Virus record (IMG/VR): IMGVR_UViG_3300028797_000097
Reading direction: 5' to 3' (one strand)
DNA length: 64,000 nucleotides
Source of the DNA: a virus
Lineage: Duplodnaviria > Heunggongvirae > Uroviricota > Caudoviricetes
Under the pieces are notes generated by a model that was not told where the DNA came from, made no database searches, and saw only the letters and a program-made list of their open reading frames with translations. A program made the position numbers and the translations under genes. Of the stretch, positions 3,953 to 48,028 are shown piece by piece. The first letter of the stretch is position 1. Each line of letters opens with the position of its first letter.

Positions 3953-4960
3953 ATGAAATTAAAACTAGTATATAAATGTGAAATTTGTGGATTAAATGAC
4001 TTAAATAAGCGTGGTTTAGGTACACATTTACAATTTAAACATTCTGATATTTCTAAAGAAACATATTATAAAAAATATTTAAAATGTATTGATGAAGATA
4101 CTTGTAAAGTTTGCGGGAAACCAACAAAATTTTTATCATTCAAAGTGGGATTTGCTAATTGCTGTTCAAAAGAATGTAGTAGAAAATGGAATAATAAAAG
4201 AATACAAGATAGTAATTTAGATAAATTTGGGGTTAAAACACCATTTGAGTTAAAAGAAATACAAGAAAAAGTTAAAAATACAATAAAAGAAAAATACAAT
4301 TGTGATAATATATTTCAAGTATCAGAAATAAAAGAAAAAATAAAACGGACATTAAAAGAAAAATATAATGTTGAGTACCCGTTAGAGTGTGAATTTTTTA
4401 AGAATAAAGCAAAAGAAACAACGTTTTTAAGATATGGTAATGAAAATTATAGAAATTCATTAAAAGCAGAAGAAACTTGTTTAAAAAACAACGGGGTTAG
4501 ACATCCGGCACAGTCAGGTATAATTGCGAAAAAAACAAGAAGTAAATATATTTATAATAATATAACATTTGATTCTAGTTGGGAACTTGCATATTATATT
4601 TGGTTAAAAGATCATAATATTAATTTTGAATATCATACAATAAAATTAGAATATGAATTTAATAATAATTTATATTATTATTTTCCTGATTTTTTGGTAG
4701 AAAATGATTTGATAGAAATTAAAGGCGATCAGTTTTTATCGGAAACTGGAAATTTAATTTCACCCTATAAAAATACTAATAATGAAAAATTAATTAAAAA
4801 ATTTGAATGCATGAAAAATAATAATGTAAAAATTATTTCTAAAATAGAAATAAAACCTATTATTTTATATATAAAAGAAAAATATGGAAAAAACTTTTTA
4901 AATAAATTTAGGGAGAAAAATCAGAATGTTTCAGAAAACTGCAGAACTTCGTGGTCATAA
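3953..4960 (+). CDS. Zn-finger / tandem-repeat / PD-(D/E)XK nuclease-like protein. It is either homing-endonuclease-like or a DNA-recognition subunit, and it occupies the TerS position upstream of terL.
   Basis: N-terminal C-x2-C-x12-H-x4-H (YKCEICG...HLQFKH). Tandem repeats of about 30 aa (KEKYN...SEIKEKIKRTLKEKYN). C-terminal motif PDFLVENDLIEIKGD resembling a PD-(D/E)XK core. The stop overlaps the terL start. Confidence 0.45.
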   Translation: MKLKLVYKCEICGLNDLNKRGLGTHLQFKHSDISKETYYKKYLKCIDEDTCKVCGKPTKFLSFKVGFANCCSKECSRKWNNKRIQDSNLDKFGVKTPFELKEIQEKVKNTIKEKYNCDNIFQVSEIKEKIKRTLKEKYNVEYPLECEFFKNKAKETTFLRYGNENYRNSLKAEETCLKNNGVRHPAQSGIIAKKTRSKYIYNNITFDSSWELAYYIWLKDHNINFEYHTIKLEYEFNNNLYYYFPDFLVENDLIEIKGDQFLSETGNLISPYKNTNNEKLIKKFECMKNNNVKIISKIEIKPIILYIKEKYGKNFLNKFREKNQNVSENCRTSWS

Positions 4961-5846
4961 TGAGGTCGTAGAATTAACTAAAGAACAAATGGATGAATAT
5001 GTAAAATGTTCTACAGATATTTTTTATTTTTCCAAATACTTTTATATTTTAAGTGATGAAGGTGAAGCGCCAATACATTTAAGAGAATACCAAGAACGTA
5101 TAGTTCGCTGTCTTGTTGGAAAATATTATGATAAAGAAGGTTCTATTAGAAATAATAGAATAATAATGCAAGGGCGACAGACAGGCAAGACTACTCTGGC
5201 CACATTATATATTTTATGGTATGCACTTTTTAATGGAGACAAAACTATCGCTGTTCTGGCTAACAAGGAAGACCAAGCAAAAGAAATTATGTTGAGAATT
5301 CGCTCAGCTATTTTGAAACTTCCACTTTGGTTACAACAAGGAATTAATCCTGATAGAGGTGGTTGGTCAAAAGAAAGTATCGGTTTTGATAACGGAACTA
5401 AGATATTCTGTGCTGCTTCTGGTTCTTCTGCTATTAGAGGTAAATCTGTTGACTTGATGCTTGTCGACGAATTTGCATTCTTGCCTGAAGAAGAAGCTAA
5501 GGACTTCATTAAGTCTGTTTTCCCTACCCAATCTGGTAGAAAGGATGCTATGATGATTCTTATTTCTACACCGCATGGTATGAATGAATTTTATAACATC
5601 TGGATGAAAGCTATTTCTGGTGCAAGTTCTTATGTTCCTGCAAAGATTCAATGGTATGAAATTCCTGGAAGAGATGAAGCTTGGAAGAAGAGAATGATTC
5701 GAGACTTCGGTATTCAGATGTTCCAACAGGAATATGCTTGTTTAACTGGAGAACATAAAATAACAGTTCGATCCGAGGAAGGAATCGAACTAACGGAACC
5801 GATTTCAAAACTATATGAACTTTGGATGGACGGTTTCTTAAGATAA
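4926..5846 (+). CDS. terL: Terminase large subunit, ATPase domain only (gp17-like N-terminal domain, 306 aa)
   Basis: Walker A QGRQTGKTT, Walker B DLMLVDEFAF, coupling motif ILISTPHG and the FQQEYACL motif match the T4 gp17 ATPase. The ORF stops where the RNase-H-like nuclease domain would start. Confidence 0.8.
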   Translation: MFQKTAELRGHNEVVELTKEQMDEYVKCSTDIFYFSKYFYILSDEGEAPIHLREYQERIVRCLVGKYYDKEGSIRNNRIIMQGRQTGKTTLATLYILWYALFNGDKTIAVLANKEDQAKEIMLRIRSAILKLPLWLQQGINPDRGGWSKESIGFDNGTKIFCAASGSSAIRGKSVDLMLVDEFAFLPEEEAKDFIKSVFPTQSGRKDAMMILISTPHGMNEFYNIWMKAISGASSYVPAKIQWYEIPGRDEAWKKRMIRDFGIQMFQQEYACLTGEHKITVRSEEGIELTEPISKLYELWMDGFLR

Positions 5847-5849
5847 AAA

Positions 5850-5880
5850 TAAAATCACCTTTAAAGGTGATTTTTTATTT
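5850..5880. terminator. Bidirectional rho-independent terminator shared by convergent genes
   Basis: Hairpin atcacc-tttaaa-ggtgat flanked by an A-run and a T-run. The minus-strand stop of gene 5875..6738 lies inside the T-run. Confidence 0.6.
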
Positions 5881-6738
5881 TCGTTTAAACGGATTTAATA
5901 ATTTTGTATATTCATTTTCAGGATAATCTATTGATTTATCAGTAGGTTGATCCTTATATTTTAAATTTTCTACACTATCTATTCTTGTTCTATTTAATTT
6001 TTCTTCCCATTCATCTAATGAACGATGATAATAATGGAACAATCTAATATCACAATTTGATACATTTATTTTTGCTTTTGGTCCTACAACTTTTGGTTCA
6101 AATGTTGTATTATTTGGTAGTGTTACAGGATAATTATTAATAAAATGTGGATATACAAATTTTATATGGTCCATAGTATTTTTTAAAAATCTATGAATAA
6201 ATGGTTTTACATCAACAAATGTTTCTTGATTATATTTTTCACTGACATACTTACAATCATCAATCATTGGTTTTTGTCTTGTTTTTGGTGTTTTAGATGA
6301 TTTATAAGAAATATTTGTTCTAGGAACACCAAATTGATAAATATCATTTTCATTTAATTTTTTTAAATAATCATTTATTGTTTTATATTTTGTTTTATCA
6401 AACCATAGATATTCGTCATCATCACAGAAAAATTGATATGTGTATTTATTATTTGTATTAACATATCTAGTATAATAATATTGTTGAACATTTAAAAATT
6501 TAGATTTATCATATAATAAAACAACATCTACTTTTTCATTATCTTTAAATTTTTCTTTTATATTACAACAATTACTTTCATTATCTACAATAATAATATG
6601 GTCAAATCCACACCAATTTAAATAGTGGTCAACCCATGAATCTATATCGCATTTTTTATATAATTTTGTTATTAATATAACTTCAGAAGAAATTGGTTTT
6701 GTTTTATATGGATTTTTCAATTCACTAGTTCTAAACAT
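5875..6738 (-). CDS. Putative GT-A fold glycosyltransferase
   Basis: HIIIVDNESN (GT2-like nucleotide-sugar binding motif) and an acidic FCDDDEYLW (DXD-like) motif. Confidence 0.35.
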   Translation of the reverse strand: MFRTSELKNPYKTKPISSEVILITKLYKKCDIDSWVDHYLNWCGFDHIIIVDNESNCCNIKEKFKDNEKVDVVLLYDKSKFLNVQQYYYTRYVNTNNKYTYQFFCDDDEYLWFDKTKYKTINDYLKKLNENDIYQFGVPRTNISYKSSKTPKTRQKPMIDDCKYVSEKYNQETFVDVKPFIHRFLKNTMDHIKFVYPHFINNYPVTLPNNTTFEPKVVGPKAKINVSNCDIRLFHYYHRSLDEWEEKLNRTRIDSVENLKYKDQPTDKSIDYPENEYTKLLNPFKRK

Positions 6739-6748
6739 TTTTCACCTA

Positions 6749-7525
6749 TTAAATTACACTTTGATATTGTTCAGCAAAAGTTCTGAAAATTTCAATATAC
6801 ATCTTAATTATATTAACTGTTTCTTTTGCACTGAACTGATTATTCTTAAATCCATCAGAGTCAATAAAATCTATCTTTAATTTGACCGTAGCATATACAG
6901 AACGCTGATTTACTGAATACCCTAGTATATCTATTCTGGAACCATTATCGACGTTCTGGCGCACGTATGGAGCGAAATATTTATTTAATTGCTTAATATA
7001 ACTCTTAACATCTGTATTTATTTCATTACGCATTTCAAAGATTTTAATTTTTAAAACAGCAAAAGCTTCAGTCTTAGTAACTTCGACACCTTTTAAGGCA
7101 CAATTATCAATATTGTGAACTAATAATAAAAGTTGATTTTTTAACAATATATTATCAGCCTTTTTCTTATCGACTTTTATAGTATTCTTTTTAAGCTGTT
7201 CAAGGCAATAATTTGTTGGGACCATCGCATTATAGCCTTCATTGTAAAAATTAACAACAGATTCCATAAGTTCTCTTGGCATCTTAATTATATTATAACC
7301 AAAAGTTCTGACATTTCTTACTATTTTATCATAATATTTTGAAAATTCATTATTTTGAGAATTCTCATTAAGCGAGATAGAAGAACGAATAAAATCAATG
7401 GGGTTAACGTCATTAATATAAGCTTCAAACATTTTTTCCATGTTAAGCTTAACATCTTTATTGAGATGCTTAGCCTTTCTTTCCATAATTTTTTCGACTT
7501 CTTGTTTATAATCTAAAAATTCCAT
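6749..7525 (-). CDS. Hypothetical protein (258 aa), late-promoter driven
   Basis: ORF with TATAAATA about 30 nt upstream on the minus strand (7556-7563). Confidence 0.45.
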   Translation of the reverse strand: MEFLDYKQEVEKIMERKAKHLNKDVKLNMEKMFEAYINDVNPIDFIRSSISLNENSQNNEFSKYYDKIVRNVRTFGYNIIKMPRELMESVVNFYNEGYNAMVPTNYCLEQLKKNTIKVDKKKADNILLKNQLLLLVHNIDNCALKGVEVTKTEAFAVLKIKIFEMRNEINTDVKSYIKQLNKYFAPYVRQNVDNGSRIDILGYSVNQRSVYATVKLKIDFIDSDGFKNNQFSAKETVNIIKMYIEIFRTFAEQYQSVI

Positions 7526-7636
7526 AAGTTTCGTGTCCCAATAGTAGTCTTTTATTATTTATAGTTTAGGGGTTTACAATTATTTTGAAAAATGTTATAT
7601 TTAGGTCAAACACTTAACAAAAAGGAAAAATCATCT

Positions 7637-8413
7637 ATGAAAAAAATCTATTCAATCTTTATTATGTTGGCGTTTGCACTCTTTACGGGTTGTACGACAG
7701 TCGACGAAACCGAAAGAGCAGTTGTTCTTGAATTCGGTAAGTACAGCGAAACTTTCGGACCAGGATTGCACTTCTATAATGTGTTCATGAAGAGCATTGT
7801 TACGATTCCCGTCAAAACACAGCTTGAAGCAAGCACATTCGAAGCAGGTTCTAAGGACCTTCAGCAAGTTGTTGTATCGTCAAACGTTAACTATCACGTA
7901 GATCCGCAAGCAGTTGGTAAGGTATATTCGAATTATGGTGTAAATTATGTTCAGACTATTCTTCAGCCTAAAATTAAGGAAACGGTTACGTCTATTACAC
8001 CACAGTATGTCCCTGAAGAAATGTTGCAGAAGCGAGAAGAAATTAATATTAGAATGAAAAATGCATTGAAGGCAAAGCTTGATTCTGCAGATGCACATAT
8101 TGTTATCGATGGTTTTACTGTAACTGGTTTCCAATTTACTCCTGCATTTAATTCTGCTATTGAAGAAAAGCAGGTTGCAGAACAGAAGGCATTGAAGGAA
8201 AAGAACGTTCTTAAGCAGATTGAATATCAGAATGAACAGAAGGTCGCAAAGGCAAGAGCTGATTCTACCGAAATGGCAATTAAGATGGCAACATTGAAGT
8301 CCCAGTCTGGCAAGGAATACTTGATGCTCAAGTGGATTGAAAAGTGGAATGGTCAGTTGCCGAATATGATGCCTGGTGATAACAAGATTATCCCAATGGT
8401 TAATGGACTTTAA
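7637..8413 (+). CDS. SPFH/band-7 (prohibitin/HflC-like) lipoprotein
   Basis: RBS aaagga is 7 nt before ATG 7637. Signal peptide MKKIYSIFIMLAFALFTGC with a Cys lipobox. SPFH core (VVLEFGKYSETFGPGLHF...). The annotated 7592 start overlaps a promoter-like repeat. Confidence 0.7.
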   Translation: MKKIYSIFIMLAFALFTGCTTVDETERAVVLEFGKYSETFGPGLHFYNVFMKSIVTIPVKTQLEASTFEAGSKDLQQVVVSSNVNYHVDPQAVGKVYSNYGVNYVQTILQPKIKETVTSITPQYVPEEMLQKREEINIRMKNALKAKLDSADAHIVIDGFTVTGFQFTPAFNSAIEEKQVAEQKALKEKNVLKQIEYQNEQKVAKARADSTEMAIKMATLKSQSGKEYLMLKWIEKWNGQLPNMMPGDNKIIPMVNGL

Positions 8414-8449
8414 AAACACCTAAAAATCTCCATATTTAGGGTCAAATCA

Positions 8450-8482
8450 AAAATACCAGTATTTTATACTGGTATTTTTTTA
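8450..8482. terminator. Bidirectional terminator (ataccagta/tactggtat stem)
   Basis: 9-bp stem flanked by A and T runs between convergent genes. Confidence 0.6.
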
Positions 8483-8824
8483 TTTTTTATTATTATTTCT
8501 ATTATTTTTTGTCTTACTTAATCGCCACTTTAGAAAGTCTCTTACTTTTTGTAAATCTGGATATTTAACGACTTGGTTTTCTGTAATATCATTCCAAATG
8601 TCCATATAACCGTTATACCAGCAGATAAACCACCAATAGTTTTGTGTCCCATACGCACGATATGAAATAATATCTGGACGACATTCATCCATTTTTCTTA
8701 CAAACAGATAAGATTCTTTACCAAAGTCATATCCGTCTTGGAAGAAAGAACCTAAGTCATATTGGGCAATATTATCAACCAATTCTTTATTTAAAAAGTT
8801 TGTTCTACTAGTTATATTATCCAT
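8480..8824 (-). CDS. LysM-like phage tail/baseplate protein (tail protein X-like)
   Basis: RPDIISYRAYGTQNYWWFICWYNG...NQVVKYPDL resembles LysM-like tail-X family motifs. TATAAATA lies 5 nt upstream. Confidence 0.35.
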   Translation of the reverse strand: MDNITSRTNFLNKELVDNIAQYDLGSFFQDGYDFGKESYLFVRKMDECRPDIISYRAYGTQNYWWFICWYNGYMDIWNDITENQVVKYPDLQKVRDFLKWRLSKTKNNRNNNKK

Positions 8825-8832
8825 ATTATTAT

Positions 8833-9654
8833 TTATATCTGATAATTATTATATAAATTACGGTATCTTTCCATTATTAAATGTTTTCCTTTAATATGGT
8901 CAAATAATCCGTCAGTTCTTTCATGTGCTTGATGCATAATTTCAATATCTTTTGAAATTCCAACATTTAAACCAGCATACATAGCATCTATACCCATAGC
9001 TACATCTTCATAACCCCAGCCTTTAGCAAATGTTTTACTGTCAAATAAGGCATTATCTATACCATATTCTTTTTTCATAAATTCTATGTGTTTTAGTAAT
9101 CCTGTTTTAGTTATACCGAAATTACATGACCAGCCAATCATTCCAGTAAGCATTAAATCCATTTTTTCATCAAATGTTTTTGCATTATTCCATGCTTTTA
9201 TTGCACCAGAAGTTATCCTAAGATCGTCATAATTTAATGGTCTTTTTTGCCAAAGTTCATCCATATTAGCGGTCAATAAATCAGATGCTGGAACTTTTAT
9301 GTTATCGATTGGTGTATGTCTTCTAGTTCCAAAGACTAAATCATATTTTTCTAATAATTTTTTATAATTTACAATTACTTTTTTATTTGCTAGCCAAGAA
9401 TCACCATCTATAAAAATTAATGCATCTGTTTTATTATTAAGAAAATATGATATTACAGAATTTCTATTAGTGCATCTTCCAGGATTTTTACTATTATCAA
9501 TTATATAAACATTTTTATAAAAATTAACTGGCATTTTACCATCTGATAATACATATATCATTGTAGGTATTTCAGTTTGATTATATATTGAAAAAATGGC
9601 TTTACTTAAAGATTCTTCTTGATTATGATTTGTTATTGCTATTGTTATATCCAT
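8833..9654 (-). CDS. Family-2 (GT-A) glycosyltransferase
   Basis: IAITNHNQEESL...IYVLSDG, DXD motif IFIDGDSW and a WGYEDVAMG motif. TATAAATA lies 4 nt upstream. Confidence 0.65.
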   Translation of the reverse strand: MDITIAITNHNQEESLSKAIFSIYNQTEIPTMIYVLSDGKMPVNFYKNVYIIDNSKNPGRCTNRNSVISYFLNNKTDALIFIDGDSWLANKKVIVNYKKLLEKYDLVFGTRRHTPIDNIKVPASDLLTANMDELWQKRPLNYDDLRITSGAIKAWNNAKTFDEKMDLMLTGMIGWSCNFGITKTGLLKHIEFMKKEYGIDNALFDSKTFAKGWGYEDVAMGIDAMYAGLNVGISKDIEIMHQAHERTDGLFDHIKGKHLIMERYRNLYNNYQI

Positions 9655-9715: not shown

Positions 9716-12700
9716 TTATTGAAATGACCATGTACTTGTTGAAGCATCCCAATGTAAATCACCTTGACCCATCGCAGTAGTAAGGAAATCAAATAGCTTA
9801 CCAAGCATGCTATTAGGATCAGCTTTATATGTTTTTGCGGAAACTGTACCATCAGCAGAAACAATCATTGCATTTGATAATTCTACAACATTTGGATTTT
9901 CAATATCTGCATAATTTACCTTATTACAATTTGGGTCAGATACATCATGATTTGCACCACTAAAGAAATAACCGTCATATTCATATGCTTTAAGGCGACC
10001 ATTACCAATAGCAAATATTATACCACTATTTGGTATTGCTACCATCTCATCATTAATCCAAGCAGATGTAGTTCTTACACAACCATCTACTTTTTGGTTA
10101 TACTGACCCATAATAGTTTGATGCTGATTTGCTTTTAAGTATGCGCCAATAGTTGTGGAATGATGTCCTCTATTAACGTTACCTATACCCATACCAATCT
10201 GACAAGAACCGCTTAAACCATTATTATAAGTACCAATTAAAATATTATTACTATAATAAAGGTCACTATCACTAAATAATGTATTTCTATCACCAATTAA
10301 TACATTAGAATTATATTTTTTAGAAACACCATTGAGAACACCAAACATATAGTTTCTATCATTATGATCACTAGTATGTCCTAGTATATTTCCATGATCT
10401 GTAATACCAAATAATGTACCTGATTTAGTTGCACCAAAATAGTTATCAGTACCAATAATAGCATTATCAGTAGTAGTACCAGCAGATGTTTTAATATAGT
10501 TATTAGCACCATATACGAAGTTACGGTCTAATCTGTTATTAGTTGGTGGGACAGTAATTTCTAATCTATTACCTACACCATAAACGAAGTTTCTACTTGC
10601 ATTATTACTGTCTGTAGTTAAGTGCGCAGTTTCTGAGCCTAAATAACCAACACTATTCATTTCACCTATAACATAGGTTCCAATTGAATTTTGAAGAGTA
10701 TTACCAATACCACAGAGTAAGCATTCACAAAGATATTTAGCAATAAAGTCTCCATAGATAAATGAACGGTTTGTATACATAGCAACAGAATCGCTAAGGT
10801 CATTATAAGTATCGGTTTCATGCATATTACCAAAAATATAAGTTTCATTGGTATTATATGCAGCTCCTTTAAATATTATATTATTTTTTAAGCATTGAGT
10901 AGCGCCATTTAAGCTAGAACAAAAATTATTCGGTTTATCTGCTCTATAATATCCTTTGAATAAGAAGTTTTCTGTGGTATATCTGTTATTTGCTGAAAGG
11001 ACAGAACCGAATAATACATTTTGTGTAAATACTGAATTAACTTGTTTTTCAGTATCAAATGTAGCAGTAACTTGTGAATTAATTATAATATTATCAGCTA
11101 GATATTCAACACCAGAGAAACTTAAAGTATCACAGTTTTCAGAACCTTGAGAATTTAAGAAGATATTTTCGGTGAAATATCCCTGTGCAAATGTTGGTGC
11201 ATATGCTTTCAAGTCAGTATTATGAAGAATATTAGCATTAGCTATACAAAAATGATCAATTTCAACTTTTCTGGAATTAAACATTATATTTTTACTAAAT
11301 GAACCATTAAAATAAGGCCAACCAATATGTTTATGTAATATTATCTCACCATCATTACCAAGACTTTCCAGATTATATAGGAAGTTATACTCAATATTAC
11401 CTTCTTCTGCAGAGAATGTATCAGGAAAATCTACACCATGAGCATAGTTTCCGTGTATTGTGGTTGCATATATAGATGTTGATCTGATATATTGTAAATC
11501 ATAAAGTTTGTTATCATCAAATGAATGTGAAAATATATTTACAGAACCATTTGCATGATTTATAATATTATTTGTTCCATAAGTTGAAATAAGTTTAAAA
11601 TTACCAGGACTACCAACATTTTCAAAGTAATTATTATATAATGAACCACTTAATTCAAACCTACCGCCACCACCGGCAACATGTTTAACGGTATTACGAT
11701 TAAACTCACCACCACCTGAAATAGTTACATTAGAGACATCGTAAAATTCGTTTCCAATAATTCCTGGCGATCCTTCATTGTAGTTTCTTATATATTTTAC
11801 TCCACGAGCATGAGTAAAATCATTATCTTGAAATGGCATTTCAACAAATTGATTACCATAATAAGTGCTACGAATATTGCCGTAATCTATTTTTACTGTA
11901 GCATTAGTAAATTCATTGTGTTCAAAACCATACTTATACCAATCATCTGGTTTATTAACACCAACAATAGTAGAAAAATATATTTTATTAAGACCTACAC
12001 CAGCATCAGAATGACCAAGTGAAAAGTCATAGCCAGAAAAAAGTGATAAAAATGCAATATTATTATGGCCATCAATACGCGAACGAATATTGAAATTTTG
12101 ATAACCGATACTTCTAGTGTCAAATTTTACCGTATTACTATAATCTGGCAAATAATAATTATTTGCATTTAAGTTAGTAACACCTATTACGATATTTTCA
12201 CCACCAGATGCTAATACTCCTTTACCAATTGCAATATCATAGTTACGAATAGCAGAGTTTTCAAGACCAAATGCTAATGTAAAACCATCGTTATTCTGGC
12301 TAGTACTATCTAATTCCAAATCACTTTGTGTGGTTTCGGAATAGTTTTTAGAACCGAAAATGAAAGCGTTTCTTGTAGTGTTGGCAGAGTTATCGTTACC
12401 AACAATAAAATTCTGCGTATTATAAACTTTTGTATTATTGTCTTTAATTAATTTATCAGTGCTTTTAGATTCATTACCATTACCAATAATGATAGAATTA
12501 CCATGTGCGGAGTTACCAGAACCAATATAGTAATTATTATCGCCTTCTATATCAGTATCATGATCTTCAGACCAGTTTTTCCAGCTATTGCTGGCACCTT
12601 CAAGATCTTGCAATAATTCTATAATTTTATCATCACGATTCTTTAACGGTCCAATTGTATTTGCTTGTAACCAGTTACCATCAGCAACGGTATTTCTATC

Positions 12701-12760
12701 CCAGCTTGAAACTGGCAATTCCTCATTAAATTCTTCTACGGTAGGTATATTAGTTGCCAT
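9716..12760 (-). CDS. Large beta-helix repeat tail fibre / tailspike-like protein (1014 aa)
   Basis: Long N/G/S/Y-rich degenerate repeats typical of beta-helical fibre proteins. Late promoter TATAAATA lies 25 nt upstream. Confidence 0.55.
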   Translation of the reverse strand: MATNIPTVEEFNEELPVSSWDRNTVADGNWLQANTIGPLKNRDDKIIELLQDLEGASNSWKNWSEDHDTDIEGDNNYYIGSGNSAHGNSIIIGNGNESKSTDKLIKDNNTKVYNTQNFIVGNDNSANTTRNAFIFGSKNYSETTQSDLELDSTSQNNDGFTLAFGLENSAIRNYDIAIGKGVLASGGENIVIGVTNLNANNYYLPDYSNTVKFDTRSIGYQNFNIRSRIDGHNNIAFLSLFSGYDFSLGHSDAGVGLNKIYFSTIVGVNKPDDWYKYGFEHNEFTNATVKIDYGNIRSTYYGNQFVEMPFQDNDFTHARGVKYIRNYNEGSPGIIGNEFYDVSNVTISGGGEFNRNTVKHVAGGGGRFELSGSLYNNYFENVGSPGNFKLISTYGTNNIINHANGSVNIFSHSFDDNKLYDLQYIRSTSIYATTIHGNYAHGVDFPDTFSAEEGNIEYNFLYNLESLGNDGEIILHKHIGWPYFNGSFSKNIMFNSRKVEIDHFCIANANILHNTDLKAYAPTFAQGYFTENIFLNSQGSENCDTLSFSGVEYLADNIIINSQVTATFDTEKQVNSVFTQNVLFGSVLSANNRYTTENFLFKGYYRADKPNNFCSSLNGATQCLKNNIIFKGAAYNTNETYIFGNMHETDTYNDLSDSVAMYTNRSFIYGDFIAKYLCECLLCGIGNTLQNSIGTYVIGEMNSVGYLGSETAHLTTDSNNASRNFVYGVGNRLEITVPPTNNRLDRNFVYGANNYIKTSAGTTTDNAIIGTDNYFGATKSGTLFGITDHGNILGHTSDHNDRNYMFGVLNGVSKKYNSNVLIGDRNTLFSDSDLYYSNNILIGTYNNGLSGSCQIGMGIGNVNRGHHSTTIGAYLKANQHQTIMGQYNQKVDGCVRTTSAWINDEMVAIPNSGIIFAIGNGRLKAYEYDGYFFSGANHDVSDPNCNKVNYADIENPNVVELSNAMIVSADGTVSAKTYKADPNSMLGKLFDFLTTAMGQGDLHWDASTSTWSFQ

Positions 12761-14022: not shown

Positions 14023-14059
14023 AACGTATTGTTTACATAGCAATACGTTTTTCTATATT
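14023..14059 (+). promoter_or_regulatory. Composite terminator hairpin plus sigma70-type promoter (TTTACA-N16-TATATT)
   Basis: Stem aacgtattg/caatacgtt with the -35 element in the loop, then a T-run and CTATATTT. The -10 ends 7 nt before ATG 14067. Confidence 0.5.
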
Positions 14060-14066
14060 TGTAAAT

Positions 14067-30637: not shown

Positions 30638-30662
30638 TATATCGTTTCAGACAACATTAAAT

Positions 30663-30699
30663 AAAAAGGGTTGACGGCAGTCACCCTTTTTGCTATATT
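30663..30699 (+). promoter_or_regulatory. Terminator hairpin overlapping a canonical sigma70 promoter TTGACG-N17-TATATT
   Basis: Stem gggt(t)gac/gtcaccc with a T-run. The -35 is at 30671-30676 and the -10 at 30694-30699. It drives the NfeD-like/flotillin pair. Confidence 0.6.
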
Positions 30700-30726
30700 T
30701 AGGAAAAACTTACAAGGAGATATAAA

Positions 30727-31218
30727 ATGATAGTAATCGCTTGGACGATTGTTGGTTTAACTGCACTTTTCATTATCTGCAGCTGCATAAAGAGTTGCGT
30801 CAGAATGGCAACAATGGAACGCTTTAAAAACGTTCCCATTCAGACACCTACCTTAATTGCAGATAAGAATAAGATTATTCAGTCATTATTTGATGATGAC
30901 GCTGAAAAGTTTTTCAAATATAAAGGTATAACATTCTGGTATTATAAGGATTCAAAGGATTACTTTGAAAAGCAGAGTTTTAGTGTTGCTGATGTAAAGA
31001 ATAAGATTGCACAGAAGTATGATGAACTCAAACAAGAACATCCAGGAATTACAGATTTTTTTGTTTCCATGACAAAACAAAATAATTATTTGACATGGGA
31101 ATTTGATCCGATTGACTTAAACTCTTATGTTCCGCCAAAGTCAACTAAGGATATTTGTATCGATGAGCTTAACAAATTAATAGAAAACAATGAAATAAAG
31201 GAAAAACATGACATCTAA
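30727..31218 (+). CDS. NfeD/YuaF-like membrane protein partner of flotillin
   Basis: N-terminal TM helix followed by a soluble domain of about 130 aa. It is immediately upstream of and overlapping the flotillin gene, as in the host yuaF-floT / yqiJ-yqiK operons. Confidence 0.4.
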   Translation: MIVIAWTIVGLTALFIICSCIKSCVRMATMERFKNVPIQTPTLIADKNKIIQSLFDDDAEKFFKYKGITFWYYKDSKDYFEKQSFSVADVKNKIAQKYDELKQEHPGITDFFVSMTKQNNYLTWEFDPIDLNSYVPPKSTKDICIDELNKLIENNEIKEKHDI

Positions 31219-32806
31219 TATGATCTACCCAATACTTATCGGAATTGCAGTAATTGCTTTAAGTATTCTCTTTTTTGCGTCTTATATCAAAGCCGCACCA
31301 GATGAAGTTAAAATCATCTCTGGTTTCCGACAACTAAGGACAATTATCGGACATTCAGGATTTAGAATTCCGTTCCTTGAGCAAGTCGATACTTTAAGCT
31401 TAAAGCTTATTCCAATCGATGTTAAGACCTCCGGTATTCCAACGTCAGATTATATTAATATCGCAGTTGATGCAGTCGTTCAGGTCAAAATTTCTGATGA
31501 AACTGCTGATATTAAGGTTGCTGCACAGAACTTCTTAAATAAGAATCCAGATGAAATTAAGAAGATGATTAGTGAAGTTCTTGAAGCAAACATGAGAGAG
31601 ATTGTTGGTCAAATGGAACTTGTCAAGCTTGTTAATGACAGACAACAGGTTTCTAAGAAGGTTCTCGAAAATGCTTCTCCAGACTTAAAGAAACTCGGTA
31701 TTGTTATTCAAACATTTAATATTCAGAACTTCTCTGATTCAGCAAAGGTTATTGAAAACCTCGGTGTTGACAAGGCAGTTGCAATTCAGAAAGCAGCAGC
31801 AATTTCTAGGGCCAATGCAGAAAGAGACGTTAAGATTGCTCAGGCAGAAGCAGCTAAGGAAGCAAACGATGCACAGGTTGCATCTAACCTCGAAATCGCA
31901 CAGAAGCAAAACGACTTAGAAGTTAAGAAGGCTGACCTTAAGAGAATTTCCGATAGCAAGAAGGCTGAAGCTGATGCCGCTTACGAAATTCAGAAGCAAG
32001 AACAGCAAAAGACCATTAACATTGCAGCTGCAGCAGCTGAAGTTGCAAAGCAGGAAAAACAGATTGAAATTCGTGAAAGAATGGTAGCTGTTAGACAGAA
32101 GGAACTCGAAGCTGAAATCCAGAAGAAGGCAGAAGCAGAAAAGCAAGCACAAATTCAGAAGTCTGATGCTGACCTTTATAGACAACAGAAGGAAGCTGAA
32201 GCAGCACTCTTCACACAGAAGCAACAGGCTGAAGCTATTAAGGCTAAGGCTGAAGCTGATAAGCAAAAAGCATTCGCTGAAGCTGCAGCAACTAAGGCTA
32301 AGGGTGAAGCAGAAGCTGATGCTGTAAAGGCTAAGGGTCTTGCAGAAGCAGCAGCACTTGACCAGAAGGCTGAAGCTATGAAGAAGTATGGTGATGCAGC
32401 AAGACAGGAAATGCAGCTCAGAACTATTGAAAAGTATTTCGAACAGTTACCAGCTATTGCAAGTGCCGTTGCAAAACCGATGGAAAAGATTGGCAATATC
32501 AATATGTATGGTGAAAGCGGTACAGCTAAGCTCACTGGCGATATTACCAAGACACTTACACAAGTTTCTAGTGGTTTAACTGATTCTCTTGGTATTGATC
32601 TTAAGACTGTTCTCGGTTCTATGTTCGGTGCACATCTTGCTGGACTCGAAAAGAAACCGTCGCAGGTCCCTGTTGAAGTTGCAAAGAACGATCCAGCAGT
32701 TCCAGCTACCCCAGCTCAGGCTACTCCAGTAGAATCTCCGGTTCAAATGTCTGAATCTGATATTGAACAGGCAGCAGCAGCATTTCTTAGAAAGCGTAAG
32801 CACTAA
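31208..32806 (+). CDS. Flotillin-like SPFH protein (FloT/YqiK-like, 532 aa)
   Basis: N-terminal TM segment, SPFH domain and a long A/E/K-rich flotillin-type coiled-coil (AEAEKQAQIQK...KAEADKQKAFAEAAATKAKGEAEADAVKAKG). Confidence 0.85.
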   Translation: MTSNMIYPILIGIAVIALSILFFASYIKAAPDEVKIISGFRQLRTIIGHSGFRIPFLEQVDTLSLKLIPIDVKTSGIPTSDYINIAVDAVVQVKISDETADIKVAAQNFLNKNPDEIKKMISEVLEANMREIVGQMELVKLVNDRQQVSKKVLENASPDLKKLGIVIQTFNIQNFSDSAKVIENLGVDKAVAIQKAAAISRANAERDVKIAQAEAAKEANDAQVASNLEIAQKQNDLEVKKADLKRISDSKKAEADAAYEIQKQEQQKTINIAAAAAEVAKQEKQIEIRERMVAVRQKELEAEIQKKAEAEKQAQIQKSDADLYRQQKEAEAALFTQKQQAEAIKAKAEADKQKAFAEAAATKAKGEAEADAVKAKGLAEAAALDQKAEAMKKYGDAARQEMQLRTIEKYFEQLPAIASAVAKPMEKIGNINMYGESGTAKLTGDITKTLTQVSSGLTDSLGIDLKTVLGSMFGAHLAGLEKKPSQVPVEVAKNDPAVPATPAQATPVESPVQMSESDIEQAAAAFLRKRKH

Positions 32807-39059: not shown

Positions 39060-39089
39060 TTTAAAACAATAATATTACAATAAAAAGGG

Positions 39090-39118
39090 TTGACAAAAGT
39101 CAGCTCTTTTTCTATATT
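39090..39118 (+). promoter_or_regulatory. Canonical sigma70 promoter TTGACA-N17-TATATT upstream of the cadherin-like gene
   Basis: -35 at 39090-39095 and -10 at 39113-39118. Near-identical context to the promoter at 30671 (aaaaagggTTGAC...tttttCTATATTT). Confidence 0.6.
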
Positions 39119-39177
39119 TATTTAAATTAATTAGAAAACTATAAATATATAGAATTTTTAATAAGAAGGTAATAAAA

Positions 39178-42100
39178 ATGAAAAAGATAATCGGAATATT
39201 ATTAGTTTTAGCTGCATTTGTTTTTTCTGCAGACTATAAGCCGTTTAACTTTGAAACTATCCCACAAGATTCTGCAAGTCAACAGGATCAATTTGATTAT
39301 ATGCTTCAATATAAGTTATATGGTCATGATTTTATCAAAATGGGAAATGATGTTCGTATTCCAGACAAGTCAGGTTGGAATGGTACTGTAGGTAATATTA
39401 CTTCTAATGCAAGATTGACCTTGGGCGGTCCGATTCTTGCAAATGGTAGTATTTCTATGGGTGATGGTCCAAATAATATTACTGGACCAGTTCGCTCAGT
39501 CGATTTTGATCTTGGAAATGTAAATAATTCCAAAATCGCAAGCCCTGTTTGCTTAAGCGGAACCGCAAATGCTAATGCATTGTCTGCGATTGAAGATCAT
39601 AAGACTTATTCTTTCGATGCAAACATTTGTAAGGACAGCGTTCCTGCTGCACCTACAAATCTTTATATGCCGATTGTTGATTGGGATAATCTTGGTGCTG
39701 ATGTTAAGTTGGATGATATTGTTTTAAGTGGCAATGATGCTACAGATACTATTTTTGTTCCTAAAGGTGAAGGCGCATATAAGATTTTAATTGATAAGAT
39801 TCAGTTTGGCCTTGGCGGAACTAATGCAAGCCATTTGTATGTTAAGATGCAAGATGGCGGTAGATTGACCCAGATTTTCGTAAAGAATTTTATTTATGGA
39901 AATCATGCTACAATTCAGGTTGTTTATGATACTGACAGTGGAAGCGTAGTATTGAATCAGGACCAATATCGTGGTAACTTGATGTTCTATTCTAATAATG
40001 TTATCAGTTTTGATAATATGGACTATGCTCCTATTCAAGGTTCATTTATTTCTACTGATTCAATTTTCTTGGGAAGAAACGTTAATATTTCTGGTCAGTT
40101 ATTGACTAATAAGCTTGAAATTGGAAATGATATTGATGGTAAAAACTTCAGATTTGTTAAATTCGACCCTGATACAATCGATGTTAAGCTTGATAAGTAT
40201 GGTGGTTTGAGAGAAAATGATTCTACTGTTATTATTCCTATTGAACTAAGTGATACTGCTACTATCGCTGTATATTTTAGATATTGTTTTGATTTGAAAG
40301 ATGGTGTAACTGTTGAAGATTTTAATATTCCGCCTACATTCCCTATTTGTAACATCGATCAACCGAAAGAAGTATCTATTCCTATCGGTTCAAAGATTCC
40401 AAGTGATCCAATTAAGGTAAATGTTAAAGTCGATACATTGACAGAAAATGAATATCTTGTAATTAAGATTGATAGCATTTCTGGTGCTATTCTTCCTGAT
40501 GGTAAGACTGAAGGAGAATTAAAGATTAAGATTATTGACGCTCCTATTGGACATGTTGAATTTGATACTACAAAGACATATGAGTTTGAGGAAAATAAAC
40601 TTGGTGAAGTAGATGTAATCAAGATTTTAAATGGAACTGAAAATACTCGTTTCCATCTTGATAGTGCATATACTGATAGATATGAATTGGATAGCTTGAC
40701 TGGTAAGTTGACACTTATTGGTGAACCATTAGATTATGAAAAGGCTGCAATCGATGTTATTAAGGTTACATTGACTGATACTGGCAATGTAAGTGTAACT
40801 CGTAATATTCCTATTACAGTAATTGACGTTAATGAAGCACCTACTATCGATGATGTAACTGCTAATCTTCCGGAAAATCTTATTCATCCATTCATGGTTG
40901 AAAAGTTAGTTGCAAAAGATCCAGATACTAAGACAACATTTACTCAAAATGTTTTCAGTATGCTTGAAGGTGATACAAGCTTATTTAGAGTAGATTCTGA
41001 TGGTGAAATTTGGGCAAAGAAGACATTTGACTATGAAACTGATCAGAAAACCTATACTTTGAAGGTTTTGGTTCATGATAAGACTAATCCAGCATTGAAG
41101 GATAGTGCTATTGTTACTGTTAATATCACAAACAGCAATGATGGTCCTAAGTTTGACAGAAATGATACTACATTCCATGTAAATGAAAATGAACCATTTA
41201 AGGATAGTGTAAAGGCAACTGACCAGGATGGTGATAAGATTACTTATTCTATCATTGGAAGTGTTCCATTCAAAATTGATTCTACTGGCGTAATTACTTC
41301 TACTAGAACATTTGACTATGAAAAAGAAAAAGAATTTACATTCAAGGTCATTGCTGATGATGGTAAAGCAAAAGATACAATGACTGTAAATATTATAGTA
41401 GACAATGTAAATGAGCCTGTTCATACCAAAGATACAACTTTTGTTGTAGATGAAGGTAAAACTGGTGAAATCGGTAAAGTCAAAGGAGAAGATGAAGATG
41501 GAAAGCCTGTTAAATTTTCTTGCGATGATAGTGTGCATTACAGCATCGATACTAATACTGGTATTCTTAGACTGGTAGACCCATTTGACTATGAGATTAC
41601 AAAATCTGATACCATAAAGGTATTTGTTACTGATAGTCTATTTACAGATACTGCCATAGTTATTATTAATGTTAATAATGTAAATGAACCTCCTGTATTA
41701 CAGCCAAATGATTCTCTTACAGTTCCAGAAAATTGTAAGAATTGTATTGTTGGTATTATTACAGCAGTTGACCCTGACAGTGATAAGGTAATTTACGAAG
41801 TTAAGGAACCTGGTTTCACAATCGATACAAATGGAGTATTAAAGCTCACTGATCCTCTTGATTATGAGAAAACTCCAGAAGTTAAGATTACAGTTATTGC
41901 AAAGGATTCTAGTGGCGCAGCTGATACTGCCACCTATATAATTAAGATAACTGATATTAATGAACCAGTCCATGTTCAAGATACAACTTGTTCTGTAAAG
42001 GAAAATTATACTGGTAAGGTTTGCAAGATTACAGCAACTGATGAAGATAAAACAACTCCTAAATATATAATTACCGATACTACAAATTATTCTATCGATT

Positions 42101-47734: not shown

Positions 47735-48028
47735 ATGTTAGATACTTTAATGTTAATCTGTGGTTTTTGTGGAGCTGGTGCTTTTGCAGTTTGTTCATTA
47801 CCACAAGTTATTAAAGCTTATAAAACTAAGTCGACAGGTGATATAAGTATTTTCTTTATTATCTTGTCAATTATCGGTAATTTATGTAGTGCTGCTTATA
47901 TATTCTATACTAATTATATAAGTGGAATGTGGCAATATCCGCAATATGTAAATTATACTTTGGCAACTATACTTATATTTATCCTTCTCGGGTTAAAACT
48001 AAAATATGATAAGGAAAATAAAAAATGA
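47735..48028 (+). CDS. PQ-loop / SemiSWEET-like small membrane protein (97 aa, three predicted TM segments)
   Basis: RBS aaaggaag before ATG 47735. PQ motif CSLPQVIKAYKTKSTGDISIFFIILSIIGN. The stop overlaps the next start (ATGA). Confidence 0.5.
   Translation: MLDTLMLICGFCGAGAFAVCSLPQVIKAYKTKSTGDISIFFIILSIIGNLCSAAYIFYTNYISGMWQYPQYVNYTLATILIFILLGLKLKYDKENKK

What the first reader, a model, noticed from the sequence alone, without database searches (positions are those of the whole stretch)
7556..8482. Second SPFH protein (prohibitin/HflC-like lipoprotein) as an opposite-strand moron flanked by direct repeats
The gene 7637..8413 sits between minus-strand late structural genes. It has a signal peptide plus lipobox and is bracketed by the repeated motif ATATTTAGG(G)TCAAA (7598-7612 and 8432-8447), consistent with a promoter duplicated around an inserted moron. 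Two different SPFH-family proteins in one phage genome is notable. HflKC-type proteins modulate FtsH, the protease controlling lambda cII.
Basis: partly seen in the sequence, partly recalled or inferred. Interest (0 to 1): 0.5.

Follow-up and report, generated by a model that had tools for sequence, protein, structure and literature searches.

The report
Host-derived prohibitin lipoprotein gene in phage
An uncultured T4-like rumen phage carries a self-contained, opposite-strand gene for a prohibitin-type membrane-scaffold lipoprotein that it evidently took from its probable host Fibrobacter; this is a well-supported but fairly ordinary accessory-gene insertion whose function is still unknown.

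Summary
The gene is real: 7637..8413 (+), 258 aa, Pfam Band_7 E=2e-33, with signal peptide and lipobox (LFTG|C19). The Cys is conserved in 91/120 homologs.

It is a prohibitin-type (SPFH4) protein, not an HflK/HflC equivalog. Best solved relatives are eukaryotic PHB1/2.

The insertion reading holds. Close relatives carry the gene in the same slot. Three more distant relatives have the gp25-like gene joined directly to the 258-aa gene by a 16-19 nt spacer, with no SPFH gene. The ~950-bp block brings an early-class promoter, a bidirectional terminator and a new late promoter for the downstream gene.

The flanking "direct repeat" exists (7597-7610 and 8432-8446) but is only modestly above chance. 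The upstream copy is the -10/start region of the promoter. The downstream copy is replaced or diverged in relatives that keep the gene, so it is at most a decaying remnant.

The closest cellular homologs (65-69% identity) are chromosomal Fibrobacter lipoproteins. The second SPFH gene, a flotillin at 31208..32806, also looks Fibrobacterales-derived.

dN/dS of 0.03-0.2 shows the phage copy is under purifying selection. The link to FtsH and lambda cII is unsupported. Function is inferred: a lipid-anchored, extracytoplasmic SPFH cage made early in infection.

The parts
7637..8413 (+). CDS of the prohibitin-type SPFH lipoprotein (258 aa; stop at 8411-8413)
   Evidence: Translation. Pfam Band_7 E=1.9e-33. 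PHROG 200. Profile search of solved structures: best hits are prohibitin 1/2, E=8e-29. AF2 model plus Foldseek: best match is the human PHB complex, E=1e-17. dN/dS 0.03-0.2 among phage copies.
7637..7693 (+). Signal peptide with lipobox (MKK / hydrophobic core / LFTG-C19); the Cys19 codon is 7691-7693
   Evidence: The sequence fits the PROSITE-type lipobox pattern. A lipobox Cys is present in 91 of 120 homologs and is invariant in the 45-sequence alignment A1. More distant homologs have an N-terminal TM anchor instead.
7573..7601 (+). Early-class sigma70-like promoter: -35 TTTACA (7573-7578), 17-nt spacer with TGn (7593-7595), -10 TATATT (7596-7601)
   Evidence: Scan hit with 10/12 matches and an extended -10. 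The pattern TTTAC-N17-19-TATAWT occurs 7 times against 1.45 expected, all but one just upstream of a same-strand gene (11538 lies within gene 9716..12760). The consensus is (G)GTT[TG]AC(A)-N17/18-CTATATTT. Both hexamers are invariant in all relatives. It matches the T4/PST early consensus TTTACW-N17-TAYWAT (PMC4122927) in 11 of 12 hexamer positions (-10 TATATT has T for A at position 5).
7621..7626 (+). Ribosome-binding site AAAGGA, 10 nt before the ATG
   Evidence: Read directly from the sequence; conserved in relatives.
7588..7610 (+). Upstream copy of the imperfect direct repeat (core ATATTTAGGTCAAA at 7597-7610). It overlaps the -10 box and the predicted transcription start.
   Evidence: The positions after TATATTTAG vary among relatives.
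8422..8446 (+). Downstream copy of the repeat in the 3' UTR (core ATATTTAGGGTCAAA at 8432-8446). Probably a degenerate promoter fragment.
   Evidence: Absent in L007/L008/L020/L027 and diverged in L021/L028.
8449..8479 (.). Bidirectional intrinsic terminator: a 14-bp stem (AAAAATACCAGTAT/ATACTGGTATTTTT) with A and T runs on the two sides. It ends the SPFH transcript and, on the minus strand, transcripts leaving the gp25-like gene.
   Evidence: (I1). Relatives with a different 3' UTR carry a different hairpin at the same place.
7556..7563 (-). T4-type late promoter TATAAATA for gene 6749..7525. It lies inside the inserted block and is absent from the empty-site junction.
   Evidence: TATAAATA occurs 27 times against 14.6 expected, mostly just upstream of genes on the matching strand. 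The empty-site spacer has no such box.
6749..7525 (-). Flanking late gene p258 (258 aa, unknown function); left border of the insertion site
   Evidence: No Pfam or PHROG hit. In L029/L030/L035 its ATG follows the gp25-like stop codon after 16-19 nt.
8480..8824 (-). Flanking late gene, gp25-like baseplate wedge (114 aa); right border of the insertion site
   Evidence: PHROG 15542, 1269 and 7145. Late promoter at 8830-8837(-).
30671..32806 (+). The other SPFH locus. Early-class promoter (GGGTTGAC...CTATATTTAGG, with a hairpin in the spacer), a 163-aa membrane protein (30727..31218) and a 532-aa flotillin-like protein (31208..32806).
   Evidence: Band_7 plus Flot domains. NCBIfam FloT match at 253 bits, below the equivalog cutoff of 700. 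The closest named homolog is a Fibrobacterales flotillin at 66% identity. Promoter sequence.

Best explanation
What it is: a ~950-bp accessory-gene cassette (about 7526-8479) in an uncultured, low-GC T4-like rumen phage. It lies in the short spacer between two late genes, the gp25-like gene and p258. The cassette holds:
- one gene for a prokaryotic prohibitin (SPFH4-type) whose N-terminal membrane anchor is a lipoprotein signal;
- a phage early-class sigma70-like promoter;
- a bidirectional terminator;
- on the other strand, a new T4-type late promoter that restores expression of p258.

Origin: the gene descends from a chromosomal lipoprotein gene of Fibrobacter, the probable host. It has since adapted to phage base composition and is kept under purifying selection.

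Inferred mechanism: the gene is transcribed early by host RNA polymerase. The protein is exported by the Sec pathway and lipidated at Cys19. It then assembles on the extracytoplasmic face of a host membrane into the ring or cage typical of prohibitin and HflK/C complexes, through its SPFH1/2 domains and long coiled-coil helix. This adds to or replaces the host's own scaffold. The likely effect is to compartmentalise or stabilise envelope and membrane proteins, possibly membrane-protease clients, during infection. It probably works alongside the phage's second host-derived SPFH system, the flotillin locus.

Shown: gene, fold family, lipobox, insertion, promoter class, terminator, host affinity, selection.

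Inferred: expression timing, lipidation, oligomeric cage, cellular role.
For: Family and fold:
- Pfam Band_7 at 116 bits.
- Profile against solved structures: prohibitin 1/2 E=8e-29 to 2e-25, HflK 9e-12, stomatin 5e-6, QmcA 6e-4.
- The AF2 model (pLDDT 75.6) has the full SPFH1/SPFH2/long-helix protomer. Foldseek's top hits are the human PHB complex, then HflK/C, erlin and stomatin cages.

Lipoprotein: the lipobox is conserved in 91 of 120 homologs and Cys19 is invariant in A1. Distant homologs use a TM anchor at the same place, which implies the same outward topology.

Insertion:
- The same slot is occupied in L001-L011, L016-L021 and L037/38, even though the outer flanks are rearranged.
- Empty sites occur in three independent IMG/VR contigs, with a 16-19 nt spacer.

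Regulation:
- The promoter belongs to a class over-represented upstream of genes (7 against 1.45 expected) and is invariant in relatives.
- Terminator.
- Late promoters are enriched, 27 against 14.6 expected.

Host origin:
- All cellular hits at 65-69% identity are Fibrobacter MAGs, in a chromosomal context of GH44, Fe-ADH, Fib_succ_major, MatE and SRP54.
- The phage clade is nested inside the Fibrobacter-associated clade in an NJ tree.
- The flotillin's closest named relative is also Fibrobacterales.

Function retained: dN/dS 0.03-0.2.
Against: - No experiment or transcript data exist. Promoter timing is inferred by analogy with T4, and the promoter preferences of Fibrobacter RNA polymerase are not known to me.
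- Sorting of the lipoprotein (inner membrane, outer membrane or cell surface) cannot be predicted for Fibrobacter.
- No partner or client was identified, and no protease gene is adjacent.
- The function of bacterial p-prohibitins themselves is uncharacterised (PMC2636767). The role of phage SPFH genes is stated to be unknown in the papers I read (PMC7760394, PMC13239085).
- Host assignment rests on gene similarity only; there is no CRISPR-spacer evidence.
- The direction of the event (gain here, or loss in the empty-site lineage) is inferred from architecture, not from a rooted phage phylogeny.
- The gene's GC content (38.9%, rank 5 of 60) is not distinctive, because core genes such as gp32 and uvsX are equally GC-rich.
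Confidence: 0.55

Rival explanations
1. Superinfection-exclusion or envelope-blocking lipoprotein. The early-made, lipid-anchored protein alters the periplasmic face of the envelope so that later phages cannot adsorb or inject DNA. This would be analogous in role, not in fold, to T5 Llp or T4 Imm/Sp.
For: - Early-class promoter and a lipoprotein signal.
- Accessory gene, absent from some relatives.
- Two divergent alleles of the SPFH core (nt identity 65-82% at 7700-8200) sit within otherwise 96-99% identical flanks. That pattern is expected for genes involved in phage-phage or phage-host conflict.
- One paper speculates that a phage SPFH lipoprotein acts in adsorption or DNA entry (PMC13239085).
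Against: - dN/dS between the alleles is only about 0.2, and 0.03-0.05 within alleles. There is no sign of positive selection.
- The protein is a close copy of a conserved host housekeeping-type gene rather than a phage-specific invention.
- To my knowledge, no known exclusion protein has this fold.
- No PADLOC match.
Confidence: 0.2
2. One reading: an HflK/C-type modulator of FtsH, carried to tune a lambda-cII-like lysis/lysogeny decision.
For: Weak similarity to the HflK/HflC models and structural similarity to HflK/C cages that enclose FtsH. Eukaryotic prohibitins also regulate an FtsH-type (m-AAA) protease (PMC2636767, PMC13376388). Some protease-related role therefore remains possible.
Against: - Scores are far below both equivalog cutoffs: 50 vs 159 bits for HflK and 24 vs 134 for HflC.
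- It is a single gene, not an hflK-hflC pair.
- The phage is T4-like: it encodes gp15, gp25-like, gp32, UvsX, UvsW and gp41-like proteins and uses TATAAATA late promoters. I found no integrase or repressor among the window ORFs I scanned.
- Cultured-phage homologs sit among small early genes in large phage genomes (98-137 kb), not within a recognisable lysogeny module, although one of the three (phi6255) was obtained by prophage induction.
Confidence: 0.05
3. The flanking repeats are functional recombination modules, like the PeSL promoter/stem-loop cassettes of T4-type phages. They would have mediated, and could still mediate, insertion or excision of the gene.
For: - The two intergenic regions share a 21/25 match that includes the promoter's extended -10 (p about 0.003-0.009).
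- The downstream copy is followed directly by a stem-loop.
- This phage does have PeSL-like composite hairpin-promoter elements elsewhere: 30661-30700, 39080-39125 and 14025-14060.
- PeSLs are documented drivers of indels in T4-type genomes (PMC2839356, PMC4122927).
Against: - The downstream copy is lost or diverged in relatives that retain the gene. The copies do not co-vary.
- The order downstream (-10-like element, then hairpin) is the reverse of the composite elements elsewhere in the window.
- The empty site contains no promoter with which to recombine.
- The observed recombination breakpoints lie inside the CDS, near 7700 and 8200, not at the repeats.
- Repeats of 10-21 nt are common by chance in this region.
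Confidence: 0.15
4. A virion-associated or otherwise structural protein, since it lies among late and structural genes and SPFH proteins have been detected in jumbo-phage particles.
For: An SPFH-domain protein was detected by LC-MS/MS of Eneladusvirus virions (PMC7760394). The neighbours here are late genes.
Against: - It lies on the opposite strand, with an early-type promoter and no TATAAATA box.
- It has an export signal plus lipobox.
- It is absent from related phages that keep the flanking structural genes.
Confidence: 0.03

Closest known systems
Prokaryotic prohibitins (SPFH4 / p-prohibitins of Hinderhofer et al. 2009, PMC2636767) and eukaryotic PHB1/PHB2
   Same: The best sequence and fold matches are prohibitins. 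Length is about 255-275 aa. The layout is an N-terminal membrane anchor, SPFH1/SPFH2 domains, a long coiled-coil helix and a C-terminal tail. It is a single gene without an NfeD partner. The predicted topology is extracytoplasmic.
   Different: The anchor is a lipobox Cys rather than a transmembrane helix. This variant was seen only in the Fibrobacter-associated clade and its phage copies. The gene is encoded by a virus. Identity to PHB1/2 is about 20%.
Fibrobacter chromosomal 'prohibitin family protein' lipoproteins (e.g. loci L039-L049; P0066)
   Same: 65-69% amino-acid identity over the full length. Same lipobox, same length, and the same invariant residues. The phage clade nests among them.
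   Different: The host copies have 51-54% GC (GC3 about 0.8), against 38-39% (GC3 about 0.33) in the phage. The host gene sits among housekeeping and CAZyme genes, next to a Fib_succ_major protein. The phage gene has phage promoters.
SPFH/prohibitin genes annotated in cultured phages (PHROG 200), e.g. Acinetobacter phage nACB2, Fusobacterium phages Fnu1/FNU3, Yersinia fHe-Yen9-04, Erwinia Eneladusvirus and Mammaliicoccus phi6255
   Same: Same family; 71 phage records hold homologs. All are accessory genes of large phages with unknown function (PMC7760394, PMC13239085).
   Different: Only 25-35% identity. The three I checked have a TM signal-anchor rather than a lipobox, and sit co-directionally within arrays of early genes rather than as an opposite-strand insert between late genes.
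E. coli HflK/HflC-FtsH complex
   Same: SPFH superfamily with a periplasm-facing cage architecture. It is a structural match (E about 1e-14 to 1e-10).
   Different: Fails both equivalog models. There is no paired K/C genes, no long N-terminal cytoplasmic extension, and a lipid anchor instead of a TM anchor. No FtsH link was tested.
Morons of lambdoid phages, and PeSL-bounded cassettes of T4-type hyperplastic regions (PMC2839356, PMC4122927)
   Same: An extra gene with its own promoter and terminator, inserted between two genes that are adjacent in relatives. The promoter fits the T4-type early consensus in 11 of 12 hexamer positions.
   Different: Classical morons are expressed from prophages, whereas this phage looks strictly T4-like. 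The flanking repeat is not a conserved composite promoter/stem-loop pair.

Membership tests
SPFH / Band 7 superfamily | Significant match to the SPFH domain model (PF01145) above the curated threshold | tested here: met
   116.4 bits against a cutoff of 23.6, E=1.9e-33, residues 21-200.
SPFH / Band 7 superfamily | SPFH alpha/beta domain followed by a long coiled-coil helix, as in the cage-forming protomers | tested here: met
   The AF2 model (pLDDT 75.6) has strands at 17-88, helices at 90-150, a strand at 155-167 and a long helix at 169-221. Foldseek probability is 1.00 to the PHB, HflK/C, erlin, stomatin and flotillin protomers.
SPFH / Band 7 superfamily | Assembly into a membrane-attached oligomeric ring or cage | not testable with these tools
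   Only a monomer model could be made. This needs multimer prediction or cryo-EM.
Prohibitin subfamily (SPFH4 / p-prohibitin) | Closer to prohibitins than to the HflK/C, stomatin or flotillin subfamilies | tested here: met
   PDB profile search: PHB1/2 E=8e-29 to 2e-25, HflK 9e-12, stomatin 5e-6, QmcA 6e-4. The Foldseek top four hits are PHB. Sources name the close homologs 'prohibitin family protein'.
Prohibitin subfamily (SPFH4 / p-prohibitin) | N-terminal transmembrane anchor | tested here: not met
   It is replaced by a cleavable signal peptide plus lipobox. Distant homologs (<45% identity) and cultured-phage homologs have the TM anchor. The same topology is expected, so this is a variant anchor.
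HflK / HflC (FtsH modulators) | Score above the NCBIfam equivalog cutoffs (TIGR01933 for HflK, TIGR01932 for HflC) | tested here: not met
   50.1 bits against 159.4, and 24.2 bits against 134.4.
HflK / HflC (FtsH modulators) | Adjacent paired hflK-hflC genes that form a hetero-oligomer | tested here: not met
   It is a single SPFH gene between unrelated minus-strand genes. phmmer finds no paralog in the window. The only other SPFH gene is a flotillin 23 kb away.
HflK / HflC (FtsH modulators) | Physical or functional interaction with FtsH | not testable with these tools
   Needs pull-down or genetic experiments in Fibrobacter or a surrogate host.
Bacterial lipoprotein (Lgt/LspA substrate) | N-terminal basic region, hydrophobic core, and a lipobox [LVI..][ASTG..][GAS]-C within the first 15-35 residues | tested here: met
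   MKK, then IYSIFIMLAFA, then LFTG-C19. It fits the PROSITE PS51257-type pattern, which I scripted. The Cys is invariant in A1.
Bacterial lipoprotein (Lgt/LspA substrate) | Actual acylation and signal peptidase II cleavage | not testable with these tools
   Needs globomycin or palmitate labelling and a C19 mutant.
Moron-type accessory insertion | The flanking genes are directly adjacent in related genomes (an empty site) | tested here: met
   In L029, L030 and L035 the gp25-like stop codon and the p258 ATG are separated by 16-19 nt.
Moron-type accessory insertion | Own promoter and terminator, transcribed independently of the neighbours | tested here: met
   Sequence level only. Promoter TTTACA-N17(TGn)-TATATT at 7573-7601, a 14-bp hairpin with T-run at 8449-8479, and opposite-strand orientation.
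Moron-type accessory insertion | Expression from a repressed prophage | tested here: not met
   The gene content is T4-like. I found no lysogeny gene among the window ORFs I scanned. 'Moron' therefore applies in architecture only.
PeSL (promoter-early stem-loop) cassette boundary | A conserved composite early promoter plus stem-loop on both sides of a variable ORF | tested here: inconclusive
   The upstream promoter has no stem-loop. Downstream there is a degenerate -10-like fragment followed by a stem-loop. That fragment is lost or diverged in relatives. True composite elements exist elsewhere in the window.

The most novel reading that the evidence does not exclude
A lytic T4-like phage of the cellulolytic rumen bacterium Fibrobacter has captured both of its host's membrane-scaffold systems, a lipid-anchored periplasmic prohibitin and a flotillin module. 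It expresses them from one early-promoter class in order to rebuild host membrane microdomains during takeover. The purpose could be to keep the envelope energised and intact through a long infection, to exclude competing phages, or to neutralise a membrane-based abortive-infection response. That would be a previously undescribed host-takeover strategy based on SPFH cages.
Probability: 0.12. Interest if true: 0.6.

Novelty: new member of a known kind. Interest (0 to 1): 0.35.

Why it matters
- **Host link.** The gene ties a deeply divergent, uncultured rumen T4-like phage lineage to a probable host. Its gp15 is about 27% identical to that of any cultured phage. The genomes reach at least 170-240 kb, and some are mis-binned as Methanobrevibacter MAGs. 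The probable host, Fibrobacter, is a key fibre degrader; my two literature searches on Fibrobacter phages turned up no characterised one.
- **Clean example of gene gain.** The empty and filled sites show exactly what is needed to drop an opposite-strand gene into a late operon: a promoter, a bidirectional terminator and a compensating late promoter.
- **Open question.** It adds a lipid-anchored variant, and a two-SPFH phage, to the still unexplained recurrence of SPFH genes in large phages. It does not itself answer what these genes do.

Tried and rejected
- DNA search of the 4-kb neighbourhood against INPHARED: no match. There is no cultured relative.
- phmmer of the protein against all window ORFs did not find the second SPFH. 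Pfam scans of about 50 ORFs were needed.
- PADLOC: no meaningful hit for either SPFH protein or the neighbours. I dropped a defence or anti-defence assignment.
- I first took the 67-73% identical copies on 194-454 kb contigs (L012-L015) for other jumbo phages. Their 55% GC shows that they are not relatives of this phage. Their neighbours hit jumbo-phage-type PHROGs: tRNA nucleotidyltransferase, MoxR-like ATPase and metallophosphoesterase. Whether they are a high-GC megaphage, a mobile element or chromosome stays unresolved.
- Elevated GC as evidence of recent transfer: rejected. The gene ranks 5th of 60, but gp32 and uvsX are as high. Both phage alleles have phage-like GC3.
- The repeat as a genome-wide motif: rejected. 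There are no further exact copies in the window. The 2-mismatch hit at 30695 turned out to be the -10 box of the flotillin-operon promoter.
- The repeat as a target-site duplication: the empty-site spacer (AGGGTGACAAGAAACT) shows no convincing copy of it.
- No tRNAs in the window.
Full report
**1. Observation.**

The ORF at 7637..8413 (+) encodes a 258-aa protein beginning MKKIYSIFIMLAFALFTGCTTVDE. It matches Pfam Band_7/SPFH at 116 bits (cutoff 23.6) and PHROG 200, annotated 'lipoprotein' (E=2.5e-43).

It has an AGGA ribosome-binding site at 7623-7626, and the MKK N-terminus aligns with the bacterial homologs. Automatic gene calls in public data extend the gene to the ATG at 7592, which lies inside the promoter spacer.

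The repeated motif is present at 7597-7610 and 8432-8446.

A second SPFH protein is present at 31208..32806: a 532-aa flotillin-like protein with Band_7 and Flot domains.

**2. The phage.**

The window is a T4-like myophage. It encodes a gp15 tail-sheath stabiliser, a gp25-like wedge protein, a TerL N-terminal domain, UvsX, UvsW, gp32, a gp41-like helicase and NrdD. GC content is about 32%.

It has no DNA-level relative among 50,697 phage records. Its gp15 is only about 27% identical to that of any cultured phage.

It uses T4-type late promoters. TATAAATA occurs 27 times against 14.6 expected, mostly just upstream of genes on the matching strand. These include both neighbours of the SPFH gene, at 7556-7563(-) and 8830-8837(-).

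It also has a second promoter class, (G)GTT[TG]AC(A)-N17/18-CTATATTT. This pattern is found 7 times against 1.45 expected, and more often with a relaxed pattern. It sits upstream of the DHH phosphoesterase gene, uvsW, the cadherin-repeat giant gene, the flotillin operon and the SPFH lipoprotein gene. This class is close to the T4/PST early-promoter consensus TTTACW-N17-TAYWAT reported for PeSL elements (PMC4122927); the SPFH promoter's -10, TATATT, differs from it at one position.

**3. Anatomy of the locus.**

- Promoter: -35 TTTACA at 7573-7578, a 17-nt spacer with TGn, and -10 TATATT at 7596-7601.
- Ribosome-binding site: 7621-7626.
- CDS: 7637-8413.
- 3' UTR carrying the repeat look-alike: 8422-8446.
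- Terminator: a perfect 14-bp hairpin flanked by A and T runs at 8449-8479, which should terminate in both directions.
- Late promoter on the minus strand at 7556-7563, serving p258 (6749..7525).

**4. Relatives: filled and empty sites.**

Copies at 80-100% protein identity occupy exactly the same slot, [p258(-)][SPFH(+)][gp25-like(-)]. They come from many rumen or ruminant-gut metagenome contigs (L001-L011, L016-L021, L037/L038). The slot is kept even though genes further out are rearranged or replaced: GT2 genes, TerL/portal/sheath, and a homing endonuclease.

Three independent IMG/VR contigs of a more distant lineage differ. Their gp25-like protein is 75% identical and their p258 is 56-58% identical to the window's. 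In them the gp25-like stop codon is followed after 16-19 nt by the p258 start codon. There is no SPFH gene, no terminator and no TATAAATA box.

The roughly 950-bp block at 7526-8479 is therefore an insertion relative to that arrangement. The less parsimonious alternative is a precise deletion in the other lineage. The block carries everything needed for independent expression, plus a compensating late promoter for the gene it cut off from its operon.

**5. The repeat.**

A local alignment of the two intergenic regions gives AAAAATGT-TATATTTA-GGTCAAA against AAAAATCTCCATATTTAGGGTCAAA. This score is reached by 0.9% of shuffles and 0.3% of random real segment pairs. Chance repeats of 10-21 nt are also frequent in this 1.2 kb.

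The upstream copy is simply the extended -10 box and start region of the promoter. The same CTATATTTAGG forms the -10 box of the flotillin-operon promoter.

Across relatives the two promoter hexamers are invariant, but the bases after TATATTTAG vary: AGGTC, AAGTC, AGCTC and AGATC.

The downstream copy is replaced by unrelated sequence in L007/L008/L020/L027. It has diverged to TTACTTAAGGCCAAAA in L021/L028.

So the pair is not maintained by selection. At most it is the decaying trace of a partial promoter duplication. Recombination that is actually visible at this locus has its breakpoints inside the CDS, near 7700 and 8200. The promoter-plus-signal-peptide segment and the coiled-coil segment are 96-99% identical between genomes whose SPFH cores are only 65-82% identical. 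Both core alleles have phage-like composition.

**6. What the protein is.**

A profile search of all solved structures ranks eukaryotic prohibitin 1/2 first (E=8e-29 to 2e-25). HflK (9e-12), stomatin (5e-6) and QmcA (6e-4) follow well behind.

The AlphaFold model (pLDDT 75.6) shows the complete protomer: an N-terminal helix, SPFH1/2, a helix of about 50 residues and a short C-terminal helix. It matches the PHB, HflK/C, erlin and stomatin cage subunits.

It scores far below the HflK and HflC equivalog cutoffs. In the classification of Hinderhofer et al. it is a p-prohibitin, SPFH4, a subfamily with no characterised bacterial member (PMC2636767).

A lipobox Cys is present in 91 of 120 homologs and is invariant in the 45-sequence alignment. 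More distant homologs, including three from cultured phages, carry an N-terminal transmembrane anchor at the same place. The lipid anchor therefore substitutes for the TM anchor and predicts the same outward-facing topology.

**7. Origin and host.**

A scan of one genome per prokaryotic species found 65-69% identical copies only in Fibrobacter (11 species representatives). They lie in an ordinary chromosomal context: GH44, Fe-ADH, a Fib_succ_major protein, MatE and SRP54.

The 97% identical hits in two 'Methanobrevibacter' MAGs are 31% GC phage contigs with the same gene order. They are evidently binning errors.

In an NJ tree the phage alleles form one clade nested within the Fibrobacter-associated lipoprotein clade. 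The flotillin's closest named relative is also Fibrobacterales, at 66% identity.

The phage copies have GC3 of about 0.33, against about 0.8 in the host. dN/dS is 0.03-0.05 within alleles and about 0.2 between them. This points to an old capture that is functionally maintained.

**8. Mechanism.**

Shown: fold family, export and lipidation signal, independent regulatory signals, insertion, selection and host affinity.

Inferred: early transcription by host RNA polymerase; Sec export and acylation at Cys19; assembly into a prohibitin-like ring or cage on the extracytoplasmic face of a host membrane; organisation or protection of membrane and envelope proteins during infection, possibly together with the phage flotillin module.

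Alternatives are superinfection exclusion (plausible), HflKC-style control of a cII-like switch (disfavoured), a virion component (disfavoured) and PeSL-like mobility of the cassette (weak).

The papers I read state that the role of phage SPFH genes is unknown (PMC7760394; PMC13239085).

**9. Verdict.**

The 'moron-like insertion' and 'lipoprotein' readings are well supported. The 'duplicated promoter' is weak, and the HflKC/cII idea is not supported.

SPFH/prohibitin genes are already annotated in at least 71 phage records. This is therefore a new member of a known kind. Its useful by-products are a probable Fibrobacter host for an uncultured phage lineage, a clean pair of filled and empty sites, and a phage with two host-derived SPFH systems under one promoter class.

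Noticed in passing
window 30661-30700, 39080-39125, 14025-14060: Composite terminator-promoter elements. A hairpin plus T-run is embedded between the -35 box (GGGTTGAC or GTTTACA) and the -10 box (CTATATTT) of early-class promoters. They resemble the PeSL elements of T4-type phages.
   Followed up: partly
window 7700-8200; compare L009, L011, L018, L021: Intragenic mosaic. The SPFH core exists as two phage alleles (dS about 1.0, dN about 0.2). The signal-peptide/promoter part and the coiled-coil part are 96-99% identical between the same genomes. This indicates allele exchange within the gene.
   Followed up: yes
L037 (JAFRFB010000097.1) and L038 (JAFQXD010000042.1): Contigs of 172-191 kb, deposited as Methanobrevibacter MAG contigs, carry this phage's gene order at 31% GC. 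They are almost certainly phage contigs mis-binned by composition.
   Followed up: partly
window 3953-4960 (+) and 4926-5846 (+): A DUF7487/homing-endonuclease-like ORF sits between gp15 and the TerL gene and overlaps the TerL start. It is absent from L019, L037 and L038, where gp15 and TerL are adjacent. The TerL ORF here is only the 306-aa N-terminal ATPase part, so the nuclease half must be encoded elsewhere.
   Followed up: partly
window 5875-6738 (-) and 8833-9654 (-): Two family-2 glycosyltransferase genes bracket the p258/SPFH/gp25-like trio. They are much more variable between relatives (56-75% identity, or absent) than their neighbours (91-99%). The locus therefore behaves as a hyperplastic region inside the late-gene block.
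   Followed up: partly
L012-L015 (contigs of 90-454 kb, 55% GC): A 67-73% identical SPFH lipoprotein sits in a co-directional array of small unknown genes. Nearby are a tRNA nucleotidyltransferase, a MoxR-like ATPase with a VWA-like partner, a metallophosphoesterase, DUF932 and an IS605 OrfB. This could be a high-GC megaphage or mobile element of Fibrobacter. Its nature is unresolved.
   Followed up: partly
window 30727-31218 (+): A 163-aa protein with one N-terminal TM helix has its end overlapping the start of the flotillin gene, in the position where bacterial flotillin operons carry an NfeD/YqiJ-type partner. It has no Pfam, NCBIfam or PADLOC hit.
   Followed up: partly
window 39178-43986 (+): A 1602-aa protein with multiple cadherin/Big_9 repeats (Pfam Cadherin E=1.5e-42), preceded by both early-class and late promoters. 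It may be a fibre or adhesin.
   Followed up: no
window 48025-48684 and 49152-49823 (+): Two short ORFs with weak Gp23 (major capsid) similarity flank an NrdG-like radical-SAM activase gene (48671-49183), downstream of nrdD. Either they are capsid-fold fragments or decoration proteins, or the hits are spurious.
   Followed up: no
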